Source: Escherichia phage vB_EcoM_VR20
Length of the DNA stretch: 64,000 nucleotides
Sequence record: NC_028894.1
Reading direction: 5' to 3' (one strand)
The notes under the pieces are model-generated. The model ran no database searches and was not told the origin of the DNA. It saw only the letters and a list, made by a program, of their open reading frames with translations. Shown piece by piece: positions 3,819-39,722 of the stretch; positions within the stretch are counted from its first letter, which is position 1; each line of letters starts with the position of its first letter. Position numbers and translations under genes: made by a program.

Positions 3819-4952
3819 TTAATAAACGTAATCGTATATAATACCAGCTTCTAAAGCGGTGCGATGAATAATTCGACCATTACGAGATTCTTGTACATCA
3901 ACCTCTGGATAGTCGGTAATCATTTTTTGAAGGGTATATCGGTGCAAATAATACGGGCTATCTGGAGCATCAGTTTTCCAGTCTTGCCCAGCAAGAGTCA
4001 TTTTCTGAATTTCGTCCATAACCCACCAACCACACCAGATATAAGCTGAATTACGAACTGGCAGCGGATGAACGTAAGGTAGTTCACCCTCTGGTTCAGG
4101 TGCGACTTTAGCGGTGACTGTTACATTACCAGTTTTTGTTACCGTCACTGGGTTATAATCAGTCGCCGAAACCACAACAGAAACTTCAATAACCTGTGAA
4201 CCTTCGGCGCTTGTATCGATTACCAGAGTATCCGTGGTGCCATCTACAGGAGAACCATCTTTCTTCCAAGAATAAGCAAAAGTAGCTCCACTCGGCGCGC
4301 CGACTACATCCGCTTTAAAAGAAGCTGGAGTACCTTCAGAGACAGTAATAGAAGCAGGCGTTAAAGTAACAGAAACACCCGACATAGTTTTCTTAACAAA
4401 CGTTACCTCAGCTCCTTTAGTTGCGGTGCCATTATTATAATCGGGTGCAGAAACAGTAACTTCGCAGTTCAATGTATAATTTGCTTCTGCTGATTCGGTA
4501 ACAGTAATAGTTTCACCAGTTTGACCTGGGATTACGCTAGTGTTACGTTTCCAAACATAAGCAATTGTTGCACCAGAAGGAGCACCTGTCACGTTAGCAG
4601 TAACAACTTGAGATTGCCCTATTTCTTTAGTAACAGAGGCCGGGTCTAAAGTCAGCGTGATTGCCGGCATTGTTTTATTCTGGATAGTTAAAGTTGTTTC
4701 AGCTTCAGCAGTTTCCGGTTCCCCGTCTGCCGGAGTGGTGGTTGCAACAACTTTAATAGTCTTACTGCCTGCTGGACCAACAGCGACATAATCCATTGCA
4801 GCAGTCACAGAAGATTGAGGAACGCCATCAACGGTCCAGACAAATGATTCGGTACCTTCAGCTGCAGCGCCAGCGCCGGTTGCAGTGAAATTGGTTGTTG
4901 CTCCAATAACGGCCGTAGCCGCCAAAGGAGCAATAGTTACGGTATAAGCCAT
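3819..4952 (-). CDS. hoc: Hoc, highly immunogenic outer capsid protein
   Basis: 377 aa (T4 Hoc 376); repeated Ig-like T/V/S-rich segments; conserved C-terminal capsid-binding region. Confidence 0.8.
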   Translation of the reverse strand: MAYTVTIAPLAATAVIGATTNFTATGAGAAAEGTESFVWTVDGVPQSSVTAAMDYVAVGPAGSKTIKVVATTTPADGEPETAEAETTLTIQNKTMPAITLTLDPASVTKEIGQSQVVTANVTGAPSGATIAYVWKRNTSVIPGQTGETITVTESAEANYTLNCEVTVSAPDYNNGTATKGAEVTFVKKTMSGVSVTLTPASITVSEGTPASFKADVVGAPSGATFAYSWKKDGSPVDGTTDTLVIDTSAEGSQVIEVSVVVSATDYNPVTVTKTGNVTVTAKVAPEPEGELPYVHPLPVRNSAYIWCGWWVMDEIQKMTLAGQDWKTDAPDSPYYLHRYTLQKMITDYPEVDVQESRNGRIIHRTALEAGIIYDYVY

Positions 4953-23477: not shown

Positions 23478-23617
23478 TTTAGAAGCCTCAATATGAGGTG
23501 AATATTTGGTGGACACGTTCTTCTGAATTTCACTTCCTTTCGACAAGTCTCTCAGTTGTAGTCCACCGTTTAGGATTCTCCGGGTAACTAACTGGTCCGG
23601 CAGCCAATCCATATTAT

Positions 23618-23625
23618 TATTTATA
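23618..23625 (-). promoter_or_regulatory. Late promoter TATAAATA upstream of rIII
   Basis: Minus strand GTTATAAATAATAAT about 140 nt upstream of the rIII ATG. Confidence 0.4.
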
Positions 23626-23634
23626 ACGCTAATT

Positions 23635-23982
23635 TTACTTATAAAGACAAGGAACAGCTTTATAATGACAGGTCACAAATTTCTGCTTAACTTCTTTAGC
23701 CTGCTTAAGTCCCAGAGCAACCAGAGGATGTGGAACGTTTGCAATCTTGCCAACCGGAAGAGGAGTCAAATCGCCTACTTCACAGAAGCCTTCAGGAACA
23801 TCTGAACCAATCGAAAATACTTCACACATCTCGGGAATTTCACCCTGATGAAGTTTTCCGATAACGATACCTGATGCCGTAGTTTCTTCATCACCAGCTT
23901 GCTTTGGCTCAGAAACCAAAATAATATATTCACCTACTGCTTTAATTGGTAATTCCATATTTAATCCATGTTGTTTGGTCAT
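23635..23982 (-). CDS. 31: Co-chaperonin gp31 (GroES-like)
   Basis: C-terminus ..[41 protein letters not shown] matches recalled T4 gp31. Confidence 0.88.
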
Positions 23983-24013
23983 GTATTAATAATAACACGC
24001 GTTGTTTGAAGCA

Positions 24014-24313
24014 TTAAAGGACGAGCAGAGTCTCGGTCTGCAAACCATTCACAGAAATCAATTTATTGAAACAGAATGAACGCCATTCATTAAGCTTGGT
24101 ATCAAATACCCGGATATAGCTAACTGGTTCTTTATGAGCTTCTGGACCAGGGGCCTGGATTTCTTTATACGGCAGCAGGTCCAGGTCGCGAGTGCAAGTC
24201 ATACGACGGATGCTACCATCTGCTTTTTCAAACAGAACTTCGTGAAAACCAACAGACAAAATAGTCTTGACTTTTTCACGGAGACGAATTGTTTCTTGTT
24301 CAGTTAAAATCAT
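24014..24313 (-). CDS. Hypothetical protein (T4 31.1 position)
   Basis: 99 aa, ATG start. Confidence 0.5.
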   Translation of the reverse strand: MILTEQETIRLREKVKTILSVGFHEVLFEKADGSIRRMTCTRDLDLLPYKEIQAPGPEAHKEPVSYIRVFDTKLNEWRSFCFNKLISVNGLQTETLLVL

Positions 24314-24315
24314 AA

Positions 24316-24549
24316 TTATTCCAAAACAGTTTTAATGGTTGTTGCATTACGCTCTTTTAGAGCTCTTAATAGGCTATGGCAATTTTCAAGAATAGGCACC
24401 GTTTTATAGTTCATTTCGGCGCGAGCCCACTCGGATTTATAGTACGATTTCCAACGAGAGAAAAAGTACTTTTTATATTCTACTGAATAGGCTACCAGGT
24501 TTTCACCTTTTGAGTTCAGACCTGAAAACTTAACTAGACGAAATTTCAT
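24316..24549 (-). CDS. Hypothetical protein (T4 31.2 position)
   Basis: 77 aa, ATG start. Confidence 0.5.
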   Translation of the reverse strand: MKFRLVKFSGLNSKGENLVAYSVEYKKYFFSRWKSYYKSEWARAEMNYKTVPILENCHSLLRALKERNATTIKTVLE

Positions 24550-25130
24550 TATTCACCACAAAATTCGTTAATGTTTTCCCAGTTCAATTTGTCTAAACTA
24601 CGCTTAGGCACATTGAACACCTCAATTCCTGCATTCTTCAGGATATCATCCCAACCAGGAATATTCTTATCATACGTTTCACAGTAAACCAATTTCTTGA
24701 TTCCTGATTGAGAAATTGCCTTTGCACAATCAGGACAAGGAGAAAGCGTCACATACATAGTAGCGCCTTCAATTGACGAACCCATTCTGGCTGCGAACAG
24801 AATCGCATTAAGCTCGGCATGAATTTCGTTGTTCTTTGACCATGCAGAATGTTCTTCGCGATGGGCTTTCGCCAATACAAAACGGTCAACCTTACTGAAT
24901 CTCACACATTCTGGCTTATGACCAGGGACGAGAACGGGTTTAGGTTTATTCAGTAACCAACCTTGCTCTTCCGCATGCTCGCAACAGTTGACCCCACCTG
25001 CAGGGGAACCATTATACCCTGTAGAAATAATGCGACCATTCTTTTCAATAACAGCTCCCACTTTCCAGGAGCAACATTTTGATTCTTGAGATACAAGGTA
25101 TGCGATTTGCAGAACAGTAGTTGGTTTCAT
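24549..25130 (-). CDS. cd: dCMP deaminase
   Basis: 193 aa, same as T4 Cd; zinc motifs HAE and PCxxC. Confidence 0.9.
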   Translation of the reverse strand: MKPTTVLQIAYLVSQESKCCSWKVGAVIEKNGRIISTGYNGSPAGGVNCCEHAEEQGWLLNKPKPVLVPGHKPECVRFSKVDRFVLAKAHREEHSAWSKNNEIHAELNAILFAARMGSSIEGATMYVTLSPCPDCAKAISQSGIKKLVYCETYDKNIPGWDDILKNAGIEVFNVPKRSLDKLNWENINEFCGE

Positions 25131-25466
25131 TTACATCACCACGAGATAATTGGTTTTAATAGTTTCAACACGATATAATTCATGTCGCAATTTAGTAATG
25201 CTCTTAACATGTGTTGTAATTATACTATCACCATCGCTGAAGCGTTTTTTCTTATCGTCAAAAATCACCCCAAACATTCGCTCACCAATTTCTACAGGAG
25301 CTTCTGTGATAACAACCGCATCATAATTACTTGGGTGAATACTTTTAAACAGAGCATCATTCGCAAGCGTTACTTTGATAAATGCAGTTGTTTCTGGGTC
25401 CAACTTACGATGGTCACCTAAATCATTTTTAAGTGATTCTTTGAAAATATCCATTAAATTCATCAT
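25131..25466 (-). CDS. Hypothetical protein (cd.1 region)
   Basis: 111 aa, ATG start directly upstream of cd. Confidence 0.5.
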   Translation of the reverse strand: MMNLMDIFKESLKNDLGDHRKLDPETTAFIKVTLANDALFKSIHPSNYDAVVITEAPVEIGERMFGVIFDDKKKRFSDGDSIITTHVKSITKLRHELYRVETIKTNYLVVM

Positions 25467-25708
25467 TGAATATACACTCGCTGCGCTTCAACCAGACCAT
25501 CAGAACCCAATTTCAGTTGGGTCAACTGGTCACCACCTTTTAGAGTAATTTTCGGATTAATGACAATCATAAAACTGCGTGCAGATTCCTGAATAACTTG
25601 CAAAGTCGCAGCAGGGAATCGCTGCGATACGCGGTTAATCATCTCTTGAGCAAATGCCTTCACTTTTTCGTGAAACTCTTCAACAGTAATTGGGGTTTCG
25701 CTAAGCAT
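25463..25708 (-). CDS. Hypothetical protein
   Basis: 81 aa; ATGA overlaps. Confidence 0.5.
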   Translation of the reverse strand: MLSETPITVEEFHEKVKAFAQEMINRVSQRFPAATLQVIQESARSFMIVINPKITLKGGDQLTQLKLGSDGLVEAQRVYIQ

Positions 25709-26250
25709 CAGATTGTCTCCTGTTTTACTTGTTTAACGATAGAAGCTTTTGTGATATCGCCCTTGATAATATAACAATCTTCTGCAGTACCACGGTTTAA
25801 CAGACGCTCTGCCTCGCCTTCCGCATATTCTTTTGACACATGACGAGAGTTAATCTCAATCTTGCCATTTTTAACCACAAGCAATTTCCAAACTGATGCA
25901 AGTTTTACTGGCACAGGTTCAACTTCTGGCTTAACGCCAACTTCCGCTTGGATGAAATAATCAAATTCATCAGACAATGGACCAGCAGAAACAAACATTG
26001 CCCCATGATGCCTGTTTTCTGCACCAGAAATTTTTGCCAAATCCACAAAATTCTTTTCATCAATCAAACGAATCTCACAAACTTTTCTTCCACCGCTAGC
26101 AGTATCAGGGACAATCTTAACTTCAAACGGAGTCATACCGATGTATTTGGCAATTTGGTAATTAGCTGCCCAGCCTCCGGCAATAAACTGTTTTTTGGCA
26201 TTTTCAGATGCGAACTTGTAAAACTTGCCTTCTTCAAAGAAATTACTCAT
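25708..26250 (-). CDS. Hypothetical protein, member of the GKFY..AKKQFIAG paralog family
   Basis: 180 aa; N-terminal motif shared with the ORFs at 38642 and 39359; early promoter upstream. Confidence 0.55.
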   Translation of the reverse strand: MSNFFEEGKFYKFASENAKKQFIAGGWAANYQIAKYIGMTPFEVKIVPDTASGGRKVCEIRLIDEKNFVDLAKISGAENRHHGAMFVSAGPLSDEFDYFIQAEVGVKPEVEPVPVKLASVWKLLVVKNGKIEINSRHVSKEYAEGEAERLLNRGTAEDCYIIKGDITKASIVKQVKQETI

Positions 26251-26279
26251 TTTGTTTTCCTCATGTGTTGATGAAATTC

Positions 26280-26309
26280 ATTATACACCATCCGTGGTGA
26301 AAGTAAACA
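26280..26309 (-). promoter_or_regulatory. T4-type early promoter GTTTAC-17-TATAAT
   Basis: Minus strand GTTTACTTTCACCACGGATGGTGTATAAT, then GAGGAAAACAAA Shine-Dalgarno. Confidence 0.55.
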
Positions 26310-26310
26310 C

Positions 26311-26622
26311 TTAAATTGCTTCGACAACTACCGTTTGTTTCTGGAAGTCCATTTTGCATGAAATGGCCAAAATGTGGTTATCAATTTTAAACGGAACAAT
26401 TGCAAATGCTGCACCAGGCGTGAGTTGAACAGTGATTGCATCAACTGCATCCGGGAACATGATTTCCAGAATAGCAGACAAACGACCATGCACCTTTAGT
26501 TCAGTCGACACGTCGACGCTTTCGTATAGATAATCAGATACAATCTGACTAAAAACTACTTTAACAATTTCAGAATACGTAGGAAACATTTTCTTTTCTC
26601 GCTTAGTTATTGGGGTATCCAA
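26311..26622 (-). CDS. Hypothetical protein
   Basis: 103 aa, ATG start. Confidence 0.5.
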   Translation of the reverse strand: MDTPITKREKKMFPTYSEIVKVVFSQIVSDYLYESVDVSTELKVHGRLSAILEIMFPDAVDAITVQLTPGAAFAIVPFKIDNHILAISCKMDFQKQTVVVEAI

Positions 26623-26636
26623 AGGACCTAGACCCC

Positions 26637-26660
26637 ATTATAACATAAAATTTTTAAAGC
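26637..26660 (-). promoter_or_regulatory. MotA-type middle promoter (GCTTTA box, 12 bp, TATAAT)
   Basis: GCTTTAAAAATTTTATG is nearly identical to the element upstream of rnh. Confidence 0.45.
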
Positions 26661-26661
26661 G

Positions 26662-26877
26662 TTAATGAACGGTATGCACCTTGACATTAACGATAAATCG
26701 GTCAATGACTTCAGTCAGCGGAACAAACTCAACATAGTACTCGCCTTTGTAACGTTCATTGAGGTCATTACGAAGGGCCGCTAGCGAGTTAATGAGGGCA
26801 GGAGACATATTCTGCCCTACCAGTTTCTGAAGCTCTTTATAAGCTTCTTCTTCAACTTCATGGTGTTTGTTATACAT
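26662..26877 (-). CDS. Hypothetical protein
   Basis: Internal ATG gives 71 aa; the track ORF with an alternative start overlaps its neighbour. Confidence 0.4.
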   Translation of the reverse strand: MYNKHHEVEEEAYKELQKLVGQNMSPALINSLAALRNDLNERYKGEYYVEFVPLTEVIDRFIVNVKVHTVH

Positions 26878-27066
26878 AATGTTCTTCCAAGAAGGCCAAG
26901 AGTTCTGGAGCGGATTTAAAAATACCACCATCGACCTTGTCTTCATCTTTATAGTCCATCACATCCAGGCCAATACGTCCATCAGTTAAAGGCCATACGC
27001 CGAAGAAAAAGCATTTACGTTTTTCAATTTCTTCGATTGTACGAAAAATCTTTTCGATATTATTCA

Positions 27067-27067
<1 letters not shown>
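26870..27067 (-). CDS. Hypothetical protein
   Basis: 65 aa from the internal ATG, which overlaps the pseT stop. Confidence 0.4.
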
Positions 27068-28285
<1,218 letters not shown>

Positions 28286-28289
<4 letters not shown>

Positions 28290-28768
28290 ACACCAAGCTC
28301 CTTATAAAGTTCTTCGCGACAGGTTTTAAGGATTTTACCAGTTTCATAAGCTGCACTTTCAGAAACATCACCAAGTGCAGCGGCAGATTGCATTTGTCCA
28401 TGGCGTTTAGCTGCATATTCAAAACTTTTTACTAGCTCACGAATACGTTCTTTTTCATTGTATTCTTCAATGAATTCAGGGTATTCCCAAACTGGGCGCA
28501 TCATACGATACCAATGCTGAATAGTAATATAATTACTTCCATCCAGATTAATAATTTGCGAAGGCTTAATAGCGCCCGGAGCATAAAAAGTTACCTGTCT
28601 TACTACATCAATACCGTCCACAATAGCCCAAGCAAAATCGAAAGTTGCCTTCTTTTCAATTGGTGTACTTGCACAGGACCCTAATTTTAAGAGCTTTTGT
28701 AATGCAGGGGATTTAACACCTGAAATGTATTCAGGATTAGCCACAAAACTGTTATCGCGTAATGACAT
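28286..28768 (-). CDS. Hypothetical protein
   Basis: Internal ATG with GAGGAAAATATT Shine-Dalgarno gives 160 aa; promoter/stem-loop cassette directly upstream. Confidence 0.5.
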
Positions 28769-38641: not shown

Positions 38642-39010
38642 TTAGACCTCAAAAGTTGCTTTAATCAGTGCAATGACTTCTGCGGCATTTTTGTGATTGA
38701 CTTGCACATGAATGGTTTGGGTATCAACATCAGGAGCATCACTATCAACTTCCAGGAAGTGACAGAATTCCCATTCAGCGAGTTCAAAGTACTCATCAGC
38801 GTCACACATACTATTCAGGATGGTACCATCTTTCATTTCAACTTTTTCAACAAAATAATCACCTTCAATATAACACATATCCAGGATTTTGAAGGAATTG
38901 CCGTGTTGTTCCATCAACTTGACCATGCACGAATTATCATCAGGACTACCAGCGATGAATTGTTTTTTAGCAGCAGGGTCTAATACGTAAAATTTACCAG
39001 TTTCCATCAT
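38642..39010 (-). CDS. Hypothetical protein, GKFY..AKKQFIAG paralog family
   Basis: Start MMETGKFY.. with GAGGAAATTAAA Shine-Dalgarno; 8-bp hairpin gggaacat/atgttccc upstream. Confidence 0.5.
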   Translation of the reverse strand: MMETGKFYVLDPAAKKQFIAGSPDDNSCMVKLMEQHGNSFKILDMCYIEGDYFVEKVEMKDGTILNSMCDADEYFELAEWEFCHFLEVDSDAPDVDTQTIHVQVNHKNAAEVIALIKATFEV

Positions 39011-39358: not shown

Positions 39359-39722
39359 CTATTTGAAGGCTTTTTGTAGAAGTTCAATGATTTGGTCGAC
39401 GTTATTAGCATCTACAACACAATTAATAGAAACCGCCCCTGAAGGTGTTTTTGTATAACTGGAGTATTCACGGAAGCAATAAAACTCTTCTTCACTAAGT
39501 TCAAAATAATCATCACCCATACCATCATCATTATAGATTGCACCATTAGCACAAATTATTTCGGTTACATAATCATAGCCGTCTGCACTTGATATTGATT
39601 TAACTTCAAAACCAATCACCATTTTCTTGGATGATGTCGACCATACTAGCATTCGATGAACTAATATCAATGAAAGATTTAATACGATGTGGATTGAACT
39701 CATATTTTTTGCCAATTTCCAT
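39359..39722 (-). pseudogene. Frameshifted paralog of the 38642 gene: 38-codon frame A (39606..39722) plus 80-codon frame B (39359..39605)
   Basis: Both halves align in register with the paralog; the frames break at UGG-UUU-UGA over the A4 run at 39608..39611. Confidence 0.45.

What the first reader, a model, noticed from the sequence alone, without database searches (positions are those of the whole stretch)
25131..27067. Six-gene accessory island between cd and pseT
Small ORFs of 65 to 180 aa with their own early and middle promoters sit between dCMP deaminase and polynucleotide kinase. One is a member of the paralog family above. PseT counters tRNA-cleaving defence, so neighbours may have related roles.
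Basis: inference. Interest (0 to 1): 0.4.

Follow-up and report, generated by a model that had tools for sequence, protein, structure and literature searches.

The report
T4-type cd–pseT accessory gene block
This is the well-known variable stretch of small, early-expressed genes of unknown function that T4-like phages carry between their dCMP deaminase and polynucleotide kinase genes; it is real but ordinary, and one of its six genes belongs to the recently described GoF/Frd.2 family.

Summary
Six tightly packed minus-strand genes (65, 71, 92, 180, 81 and 111 aa) fill 25131-27067 between cd and pseT. All are under purifying selection (dN/dS 0.04-0.38). The window is a Gaprivervirus (VR7/VR26/SP18-like T4-type coliphage, 96.9% identical to VR26), and the same gene calls are already in GenBank.

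Four genes are orthologues of T4 cd.4, cd.3, cd.2 and cd.1. One is the RB69 ORF227c type, absent from T4. The 180-aa gene (VR7 gp232 type) occurs only in Gaprivervirus, Dhakavirus and one metagenomic lineage. Its N-terminal domain belongs to the GoF/Frd.2/MotB.1 "LSm-like" family described in 2025, which confirms the paralog claim.

The only two intergenic gaps hold the two best promoter matches:
- an early-type element orthologous to T4 Pe133295;
- a MotA-box-type element specific to Gaprivervirus.

Gene content differs between genera exactly at these cassettes. That is the known behaviour of T4 hyperplastic regions.

Nothing links any of the six genes to PseT, tRNA repair or anti-defence. 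A DinI lead for Cd.2 was tested by structure prediction and rejected. The biochemical function of all six stays unknown. Verdict: real, already annotated, low interest.

The parts
27067..27972 (-). pseT, polynucleotide 5'-kinase/3'-phosphatase (upstream flank, context)
   Evidence: 301-aa ORF. It is 100% identical to VR26 PseT and 76% to T4 PseT.
26870..27067 (-). Gene A = cd.4 orthologue, 65 aa, pI 4.7. Its ATG overlaps the pseT stop (TAATG).
   Evidence: phrog_2360 E 4e-37. 54% identical to T4 Cd.4. Found in 684 phage records. dN/dS 0.13-0.20. The orthologue in L013 carries PF26883 Phage_T4_Y13G.
26662..26877 (-). Gene B, 71 aa, VR7 gp234 / RB69 ORF227c type. It is absent from T4 and unrelated to T4 cd.5.
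   Evidence: phrog_3609 E 3e-41. Found in 336 records, none listed as Tequatrovirus. No similarity to T4 Cd.5. dN/dS 0.04-0.11.
26637..26665 (-). Middle-type (MotA-box-like) or sigma-70 promoter-like element in the 72-nt gap between B and cd.3. Sequence: CGCTTTA, 12 nt, TGn, TATAAT.
   Evidence: 10 of 12 sigma-70 match with TG. The MotA-box pattern has 12-nt spacing; VR7 has a perfect TGCTTTA; the gap is absent from JS98, Mosigvirus and T4. Consensus taken from PMC2988021. Function not shown.
26612..26636 (-). Hairpin GGGGU...ACCCC just downstream of the -10 box, in the putative 5' leader of cd.3.
   Evidence: strand folding gives MFE -16.4 kcal/mol, z -1.6. Not significant on its own. Conserved in VR26 and VR7.
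26311..26589 (-). Gene C = cd.3 orthologue, 92 aa (PF24051 DUF7355)
   Evidence: Pfam E 3.6e-31. phrog_1695. 43% identical to T4 Cd.3. Found in 753 records.
26280..26308 (-). Early-type promoter, GTTTACT-N17-TATAAT, followed by GAGGAAAACAAAATG (Shine-Dalgarno plus the start codon of D). Positional orthologue of T4 early promoter Pe133295.
   Evidence: 10 of 12 match. Conserved in VR26, VR7, JS98, Mosigvirus and T4. The T4 record annotates Pe133295 at this place. It fits the PeSL promoter consensus TTTACW-N17-TAYWAT (PMC4122927).
25708..26250 (-). Gene D, 180 aa, VR7 gp232 / JS98 orf212 type. Residues 1 to about 103 form a GoF/Frd.2-family SH3-like ('LSm-like') N-terminal domain. Residues 104-119 form a disordered linker. 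Residues 120-180 form a small basic alpha/beta C-terminal domain.
25463..25708 (-). Gene E = cd.2 orthologue, 81 aa (PF24005 DUF7320). Predicted fold: one long helix packed on a four-stranded antiparallel sheet.
25131..25466 (-). Gene F = cd.1 orthologue, 111 aa
   Evidence: phrog_2063 E 2e-43. 60% identical to T4 Cd.1. Found in 635 records. Absent from JS98, PM2 and Mosigvirus.
24549..25130 (-). cd, dCMP deaminase (downstream flank, context)
   Evidence: 193-aa ORF. 100% identical at protein level to VR7 and VR26, 86% to T4.
38642..39010 (-). Frd.2-like paralogue of D's N-terminal domain elsewhere in the window, 122 aa
   Evidence: Shares GKFY...AKKQFIAG with D: 47% identity over 32 aa, E 3e-4. 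32% identical to T4 Frd.2.
39359..39722 (-). Second, T4-type frd.2 copy, split by a 1-nt frameshift
   Evidence: 72% identical to T4 Frd.2 residues 38-127. The N-terminal part is in another frame.

Best explanation
What it is. The region is the cd-pseT segment of a T4-type hyperplastic region. It is a run of small, soluble, non-virion accessory proteins that are made before DNA replication. They are read from the long early leftward transcript coming through pseT and from two internal promoters.

Gene identities. Four genes are the orthologues of T4 cd.4, cd.3, cd.2 and cd.1. One (B) is a family that T4 lacks. One (D) is an extra member of the GoF/Frd.2/MotB.1 family: an SH3-like or 'LSm-like' beta-barrel N-terminal domain, a flexible linker and a lineage-specific C-terminal domain.

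How the block changes. Genes are gained and lost at the promoter/Shine-Dalgarno cassettes. The same early promoter, SD and ATG drive cd.2 in T4 and Mosigvirus, but drive D in this phage and in JS98. This is the modular shuffling already described for PeSL cassettes.

Likely mode of action (inferred, not shown). Each product is a stand-alone binder that tunes a host or phage macromolecule during takeover, and is dispensable on laboratory hosts. For D, the most likely target class is RNA or an RNA-handling protein, by analogy with the GoF(D25Y) mutant's effect on mRNA stability.
For: Identity and synteny:
- 96.9% nucleotide identity to VR26 with the same gene calls.
- T4 order is pseT-cd.5-cd.4-cd.3-Pe-cd.2-cd.1-cd.
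- Ten genus-level representatives show a shared order with variable occupancy.

Real genes:
- dN/dS 0.04-0.38.
- T4 cd.1-cd.5 are classed as early RNA and are detected as proteins (PMC9697503 supplements 4 and 6).

Promoters:
- The two best matches sit in the only two gaps.
- The early one is conserved from T4 to this phage and fits the PeSL consensus.
- The T4 and JS98 versions carry a strong stem-loop, z -3.3 and -2.9.

D as a GoF-family member. The family is described in PMC12152347.

Shuffling:
- A D homologue sits in the same slot in a third lineage (L013).
- A remote homologue sits between 30.8 and 30.7 in another lineage (L014).
- Identity is a gene-by-gene mosaic. For example, cd.1 is 98% identical to VR26 but 56% to VR7, and B is 96% to JS98 but 66% to VR7.

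General statement: early T4 genes from non-essential regions presumably help under particular conditions or in particular hosts (PMC2988021).
Against: - No biochemical function is known for any of the six, so 'host-takeover binder' is a class, not a mechanism.
- Wild-type GoF and MotB.1 had no strong effect on RNA in the only functional study; only the D25Y mutant did. D has Gly at the position of GoF D25 (my reading of the pairwise alignment). RNA binding by D is therefore speculative.
- In this window the early-promoter cassette has lost the stem-loop seen in T4 and JS98 (z +0.6).
- Promoter activity was not measured.
Confidence: 0.8

Rival explanations
1. The six genes work with PseT, or like it. 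They would help to repair or protect tRNA, or counter other host defences, and so form a functional anti-defence module next to pseT.
For: Adjacency to pseT. cd.4 is translationally coupled to pseT (TAATG overlap) here and also follows pseT directly in JS98, Mosigvirus, EcS1 and WSPA. The genes are small, early, variable and lineage-restricted, which is typical of anti-defence genes. D belongs to a family with a suspected RNA connection.
Against: - No similarity to any RNA-repair, nuclease-inhibitor or defence-related family in Pfam, NCBIfam, PADLOC or PDB sequences.
- pseT is in 1972 phage records, including actinophages, while the six genes are in 82-915 records.
- In T4 and Karamvirus cd.5 separates cd.4 from pseT, and in PM2 and phiR1-RT it is B that follows pseT.
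- The same gene run contains spanins, Alc, dCMP deaminase and gp31, so neighbourhood does not predict function here.
- RNA ligase 1, PseT's true partner, lies five genes upstream of pseT in VR26, not among these six.
Confidence: 0.1
2. The block is horizontally acquired cargo of a mobile element, such as a homing endonuclease, rather than an ancestral part of the phage genome.
For: VR7, SP18 and VR25 carry a MobE-like homing endonuclease between pseT and cd.4. Identity to relatives is strongly mosaic, gene by gene.
Against: The window and VR26 have no endonuclease gene here. GC content (0.35-0.42) and skew match the flanks. The order is shared with T4 and eight other genera. Only D and B, not the block as a whole, show the patchy distribution expected of cargo.
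Confidence: 0.05
3. Cd.2 (gene E) is a DinI-like regulator of RecA.
For: Sub-threshold Pfam DinI match (E 0.0075, 17 bits). It is seen in 10 of 18 aligned Cd.2 sequences, which are closely related to each other.
Confidence: 0.03

Closest known systems
Phage T4 genes cd.1-cd.5 (UniProt Y13D-Y13H), between cd and pseT
   Same: Same position, strand and order. F, E, C and A are 60%, 53%, 43% and 54% identical to T4 Cd.1, Cd.2, Cd.3 and Cd.4. The early promoter downstream of cd.3 is conserved. Function is unknown in both phages.
   Different: The window lacks cd.5. It has two extra genes (B and D) and a 72-nt promoter-bearing gap upstream of cd.3.
GoF / Frd.2 / MotB.1 'LSm-like fold' family of Tevenvirinae early proteins (Kim et al. 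2025, PMC12152347)
   Same: D has the family's N-terminal domain (hhalign probability 94%; PHROG goF matches). It has the same architecture of N-terminal domain, flexible linker and variable C-terminal domain. It sits directly behind an early promoter. The structural neighbours of the N-terminal domain are FeoA- and IdeR-type SH3-like domains, as the paper reports.
   Different: D is at a different locus (cd.3|cd.2 rather than near gene 39, frd or motB). Its C-terminal domain is different: beta-beta-alpha-beta, basic, weakly ClpS-like. It is confined to Gaprivervirus, Dhakavirus and one metagenomic lineage. It lacks GoF's D25 and G84 (my reading of the alignment).
PeSL / PmSL promoter-stem-loop cassettes and hyperplastic regions of T4-like phages (Arbiol et al. 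2010, PMC2839356; Comeau et al. 2014, PMC4122927)
   Same: The promoter fits TTTACW-N17-TAYWAT with a Shine-Dalgarno and start codon at its 3' end. It lies at the boundary of a gene present in some genomes and absent from others. A MotA-box version sits in a lineage-specific gap.
   Different: In this window the early cassette has no significant stem-loop, unlike its T4 and JS98 orthologues. Recombination at the cassette is inferred from comparison, not observed.

Membership tests
T4 Cd.1-Cd.4 orthologous groups | Full-length sequence match to the family model | tested here: met
   PF24051 (cd.3) 107 bits and PF24005 (cd.2) 107 bits, both against a cut-off of 27. phrog_2360, 1695, 1504 and 2063 match end to end at E 1e-33 to 1e-43. 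BLASTP to the T4 proteins gives E 1e-26 to 1e-50.
T4 Cd.1-Cd.4 orthologous groups | Same strand and same relative order between pseT and cd | tested here: met
   The window order is cd.4 > (B) > cd.3 > (D) > cd.2 > cd.1. The T4 order is cd.5 > cd.4 > cd.3 > cd.2 > cd.1.
GoF/Frd.2/MotB.1 LSm-like family (for gene D) | N-terminal domain homologous to the GoF or Frd.2 N-terminal domain | tested here: met
   hhalign probability 94.1%, E 1.3e-7 over 93 columns. phrog_2980 'goF' E 1.1e-8. BLASTP to T4 GoF 31% over 78 aa. Foldseek match to VR7 GoF E 1.1e-3.
GoF/Frd.2/MotB.1 LSm-like family (for gene D) | Bent five-stranded antiparallel beta-sheet (SH3-like or LSm-like barrel) | tested here: inconclusive
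GoF/Frd.2/MotB.1 LSm-like family (for gene D) | N-terminal domain joined by a flexible linker to a variable C-terminal domain | tested here: met
   pLDDT is below 50 at residues 110-116. There is a separate C-terminal domain with strands 121-127 and 130-137, helix 140-153 and strand 159-163. An indel-rich linker is visible in alignment A2.
GoF/Frd.2/MotB.1 LSm-like family (for gene D) | Early expression | not testable with these tools
   Only a consensus early promoter directly upstream. There are no expression data for this phage.
GoF/Frd.2/MotB.1 LSm-like family (for gene D) | Effect on RNA stability, or RNA binding | not testable with these tools
   Even within the family this is shown only for the GoF(D25Y) mutant.
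PeSL / PmSL regulatory cassettes | Early promoter TTTACW-N17-TAYWAT (or a Mot box plus -10) with a Shine-Dalgarno and ATG at the 3' end | tested here: met
   GTTTACT-N17-TATAAT ... GAGGAAAACAAAATG upstream of D. CGCTTTA-N12-TATAAT upstream of cd.3.
PeSL / PmSL regulatory cassettes | Associated stem-loop | tested here: not met
   The window's early cassette gives z +0.63. The cd.3 cassette hairpin gives z -1.6, which is weak. The orthologous T4 and JS98 cassettes give z -3.3 and -2.9.
PeSL / PmSL regulatory cassettes | Sits at an insertion/deletion boundary between related genomes | tested here: met
   D is present or absent immediately downstream of the conserved cassette. The 72-nt gap is present only in Gaprivervirus.
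DinI-like family (for Cd.2) | Pfam PF06183 score above the gathering threshold | tested here: not met
   17.0 bits against a cut-off of 24.2.
DinI-like family (for Cd.2) | DinI fold | tested here: not met
PseT-linked RNA-repair or anti-defence module | Homology of any member to known RNA-repair, nuclease-inhibitor or defence-related proteins | tested here: not met
   Pfam, NCBIfam, PADLOC and PDB sequence searches are empty or sub-threshold.
PseT-linked RNA-repair or anti-defence module | Co-distribution with pseT | tested here: not met
   pseT is in 1972 records. The six genes are in 82, 336, 635, 684, 753 and 915 records.
PseT-linked RNA-repair or anti-defence module | Phenotype on hosts carrying an anticodon nuclease or another defence system | not testable with these tools
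   Needs genetics.

The most novel reading that the evidence does not exclude
D would be a lineage-specific, early-expressed GoF-type protein with a basic ClpS-like C-terminal domain. It, possibly together with the pseT-coupled Cd.4, would act on host or phage RNA. Examples are protecting transcripts or tRNA from a host nuclease, or steering PseT/Rnl1 repair. On this reading, part of the block would be a genuine RNA-centred counter-defence module whose content is swapped between genera at promoter cassettes.
Probability: 0.08. Interest if true: 0.5.

Novelty: already known. Interest (0 to 1): 0.12.

Why it matters
It matters little as a discovery. The locus, its gene calls and its variability are already in GenBank and in the T4 literature.

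It has modest practical value in three ways:
- It places the VR7 gp232 / JS98 orf212 protein in the GoF/Frd.2/MotB.1 family and shows that members of this family occupy several different hyperplastic loci.
- It gives a clean example of a gene inserted exactly between a conserved early promoter/SD/ATG cassette and the next gene.
- It lists six small, expressed, purifying-selected proteins without a function. These are reasonable targets for knock-down and defence-library screens in T4-like therapeutic phages.

Tried and rejected

2. Paralogy among the six genes, i.e. tandem duplication. BLASTP of each against all window ORFs, plus hhalign of cd.1 against D, cd.3 against cd.2 and B against cd.2, found nothing; probabilities were below 1%. 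B is not T4 cd.5.

3. Solved structures. Searches by single sequence (E, F, C) and by profile (E, F, A, B) found nothing at or below E 0.1.

4. A structured RNA in the region. Rfam at E up to 1 gave no match.

5. NCBIfam and PADLOC gave nothing meaningful.

6. Diversifying selection on D. It is only 45-49% identical between Gaprivervirus and Dhakavirus, while its neighbour cd.3 is 97% identical. Within Gaprivervirus, however, dN/dS is 0.12-0.16, so selection is purifying. The contrast is mosaicism, not an arms-race signature.

7. Literature searches using the gene names 'cd.1' to 'cd.5' were swamped by medical papers on Crohn's and coeliac disease. No paper on a function of any Cd.x protein was found.

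A second homologue search supplied permitted, more diverse sequences instead.
Full report
**What is there.** On the minus strand, pseT (27972..27067) is followed without a break by six ORFs:
- A, 27067..26870, 65 aa
- B, 26877..26662, 71 aa
- C, 26589..26311, 92 aa
- D, 26250..25708, 180 aa
- E, 25708..25463, 81 aa
- F, 25466..25131, 111 aa

cd (25130..24549) follows F. Four junctions are overlaps or abutments (TAATG, ATGTATAA, TGATG, ATGATG). Only two gaps exist, 72 nt between B and C and 60 nt between C and D, so 93% of the interval is coding.

**Which phage.** The cd-to-pseT stretch (24549-27972) is 96.9% identical to Escherichia phage vB_EcoM_VR26. It is 94-96% identical to SP18, UPEC01, P896 and others, and 85% to VR7. 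These are Gaprivervirus, T4-type coliphages with about 40% GC. In those GenBank records the same six genes are already called. They are labelled Cd.4, 'similar to VR7 gp234 / RB69 ORF227c', Cd.3, 'similar to VR7 gp232 / JS98 ORF212c', Cd.2 and Cd.1.

**Are they real genes?**
- Each ORF matches one PHROG family end to end, at E 1e-33 to 1e-70.
- C and E match Pfam DUF7355 and DUF7320 far above the cut-off.
- tblastn finds A in 684 phage records, B in 336, C in 753, D in 82, E in 915 and F in 635.
- Nei-Gojobori dN/dS against VR7, VR26, JS98 and T4 is 0.04-0.38 for every gene.
- For T4, a time-resolved omics study classes cd.1-cd.5 as early RNAs and detects all five as proteins (PMC9697503 supplementary files 4 and 6).
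- All six products are soluble (no hydrophobic segment) and mostly acidic to neutral.

**Promoters.**
- Count. The generic scan finds no more promoter-like sites than shuffled sequence does: 9 found against 9.8 +/- 3.2 expected. The two best matches (10 of 12) are nevertheless exactly in the two gaps, on the coding strand.
- Element downstream of cd.3. It reads GTTTACT-N17-TATAAT, then GAGGAAAACAAAATG. It is conserved in VR26, VR7, JS98, a Mosigvirus and T4. The T4 record annotates early promoter Pe133295 at this place. It fits the PeSL promoter consensus TTTACW-N17-TAYWAT published for the T4/PST group (PMC4122927).
- Stem-loop. In T4 and JS98 this cassette contains a strong stem-loop (z -3.3 and -2.9). 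In the window it does not (z +0.6).
- Element upstream of cd.3. It reads CGCTTTA, 12 nt, TGn-TATAAT. That is the spacing and form of a MotA-dependent middle promoter (consensus from PMC2988021). VR7 has the perfect TGCTTTA. The whole 72-nt gap is missing from JS98, Mosigvirus and T4, where cd.3 follows the previous gene within a few bases.
- Conclusion. 'Early and middle promoters' is a fair reading of the sequence, but there are two promoters for six genes and neither has been tested.

**Comparative synteny.** I compared ten genus-level representatives:

| Phage (genus) | Order from pseT to cd |
|---|---|
| T4 | cd.5 - cd.4 - cd.3 - cd.2 - cd.1 |
| Window and VR26 | cd.4 - B - cd.3 - D - cd.2 - cd.1 |
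| VR7 | as the window, plus a MobE-like homing endonuclease after pseT |
| JS98 | cd.4 - B - cd.3 - D - cd.2 |
| Mosigvirus | cd.4 - B - cd.3 - cd.2 - fragment - aroF |
| PM2 | B - cd.3 - cd.2 |
| Karamvirus | cd.5 - B - (cd.3-like?) - cd.2 - cd.1 |
| phiR1-RT | B - cd.3 - cd.2 - cd.1 |
| WSPA | cd.4 - ? - cd.2 - ? - B |
| EcS1 | cd.4 - cd.3 - cd.2 - aroF - cd.1 |

- A metagenomic contig (L013) has all seven: cd.5 - cd.4 - B - cd.3 - D - cd.2 - cd.1.
- cd.2 is present in all ten. D is present in two genera plus L013.
- pseT itself occurs in 1972 phage records, many of them not T4-like.
- Identity to relatives is a mosaic, gene by gene. pseT to cd.3 are 99-100% identical to VR26 at the protein level. 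cd.1 is 98% identical to VR26 but 56% to VR7. B is 96% identical to JS98 but 66% to VR7.
- This is the published picture of a T4 hyperplastic region whose content is shuffled at promoter cassettes (PMC4122927; PMC2839356).
- A neat detail: the same promoter, SD and ATG lead into cd.2 in T4 and Mosigvirus but into D here and in JS98. D's 3' end supplies a new SD (AGGAG) for cd.2.

**Gene D.**
- Sequence evidence. Its first ~55 residues hit PHROG families named 'goF mRNA metabolism modulator' (E 1e-8). It is 31% identical to T4 GoF over 78 residues. It shares GKFY...AKKQFIAG with the window's Frd.2-like gene at 38642..39010. A profile of D and its relatives aligns with a GoF/Frd.2 profile over 93 columns at 94% probability, E 1.3e-7.
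- Family background. [quoted passage not shown] They have an SH3-like ('LSm-like') N-terminal barrel, a flexible linker and variable C-terminal domains. Their closest solved neighbours are FeoA- and IdeR-type domains (PMC12152347).
- My model. The AF2 model of D (pLDDT 76) shows a confident N-terminal domain, a disordered linker at 110-116 and a small beta-beta-alpha-beta C-terminal domain.
- Distribution. At the sequence level the D type is very narrow: eight clusters among 1.84 billion representative proteins, one of them spurious. One remote relative sits in a different hyperplastic locus, between 30.8 and 30.7.
- Conclusion. In the only functional study, wild-type GoF and MotB.1 had no clear effect; only the GoF(D25Y) mutant stabilised a reporter RNA.

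**The other five genes.**
- Cd.2 gave a sub-threshold DinI hit. I tested it with a more diverse alignment.
- The AF2 model is confident (pLDDT 87, pTM 0.77). It is one long helix followed by a four-stranded antiparallel sheet.
- Cd.1, Cd.3, Cd.4 and B have no solved relatives by sequence or profile.
- They are not detectably related to each other or to D.
- None matches NCBIfam or PADLOC. There is no Rfam match in the region.

**The PseT idea.** Nothing supports a functional tie to PseT.
- The six genes do not share pseT's distribution.
- The gene that follows pseT differs between genera.
- None resembles an RNA-repair or defence-related protein.
- The same leftward early gene run holds spanins (pseT.2/pseT.3), Alc, dCMP deaminase, gp31 and rIII, so adjacency carries little functional information in this genome type.
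- The one point in its favour is the tight translational coupling of cd.4 to pseT in several genera. That is weak evidence.

**Most likely working.** This part is inferred. The six products are independent small binders made in the first minutes of infection. Each adjusts one host or phage component. They are dispensable on laboratory hosts but kept by selection because they help on some hosts or under some conditions. This is the general view of T4 early genes from non-essential regions (PMC2988021; PMC12152347). For D, I would bet on an RNA or an RNA-handling protein as partner, with low confidence.

**Verdict.** The block is an ancestral, already annotated, hyperplastic segment of T4-type genomes, not an island. 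No link to tRNA-cleaving defence was found. Novelty: already known; the only small addition is filing the gp232-type protein under the GoF/Frd.2 family. Interest is low.

Noticed in passing
window 39359..39722 (-): A second, T4-type frd.2 gene ('frd.2a' in SP18) is split by one extra T in a TTTT run near 39610. The N-terminal 38 codons (MEIGKKYEF...) end at a stop at 39606, and the rest continues in another frame to 39359. SP18 matches at the same length, while most relatives are 1 nt shorter. This could be a pseudogene or a homopolymer sequencing error.
   Followed up: partly
L001 4076-4801 (VR7); also SP18 and VR25: A MobE-like homing endonuclease gene lies on the opposite strand between pseT and cd.4 and overlaps the 3' end of pseT. 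It is absent from the window and from VR26.
   Followed up: partly
L005 4098-5090 (Mosigvirus O157tp3); L012 3231-4241 (EcS1); L014 1-738: A DAHP synthase gene (aroF, an auxiliary metabolic gene) is inserted in the same variable block: between cd.2 and cd in Mosigvirus and between cd.2 and cd.1 in EcS1. In Mosigvirus a 50-aa fragment resembling the C-terminus of a distant cd.2 allele lies next to it (L005 3937-4089).
   Followed up: no
L003 about 4230-4275 (T4 reference, cd.2 5' end): In the T4 reference an upstream ATG reads MLLSEKPITVK, as in other Tequatrovirus Cd.2 proteins, but the frame breaks at AAAGGAATTC. The annotated GTG start lies in the other frame. A 1-nt difference next to an EcoRI site suggests an old sequence error or a strain-specific frameshift.
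   Followed up: partly
window 23600-28300 compared with L001, L002 and L004: Protein identity to relatives is a mosaic, gene by gene. cd.1 is 98% identical to VR26 but 56% to VR7. Gene 31.2 is 66% identical to both VR7 and VR26 but 91% to JS98. B is 96% identical to JS98 but 66% to VR7. cd is 100% identical to VR7 and VR26.
   Followed up: partly
window 25247..25219 (-) inside cd.1, and 27377..27350 (-) inside pseT: Two further matches to the MotA-box plus -10 pattern: CGCTTCA-N13-TATAAT, about 90 nt upstream of the cd start, and TGCTTCA-N12-TAGTAT. They could be internal middle promoters or chance matches.
   Followed up: no
L014 4001-4525: A remote D/GoF-family homologue (P0038, 174 aa) lies between genes 30.8 and 30.7 in another T4-like lineage. 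Members of this family therefore occupy several different hyperplastic loci.
   Followed up: partly
window 23635..23982 (-): The mechanical ORF for gp31 (115 aa) starts 8 codons upstream of MELPIK.... Orthologues in VR7 and VR26 are annotated at 107 aa, so the true start is probably the internal ATG.
   Followed up: no
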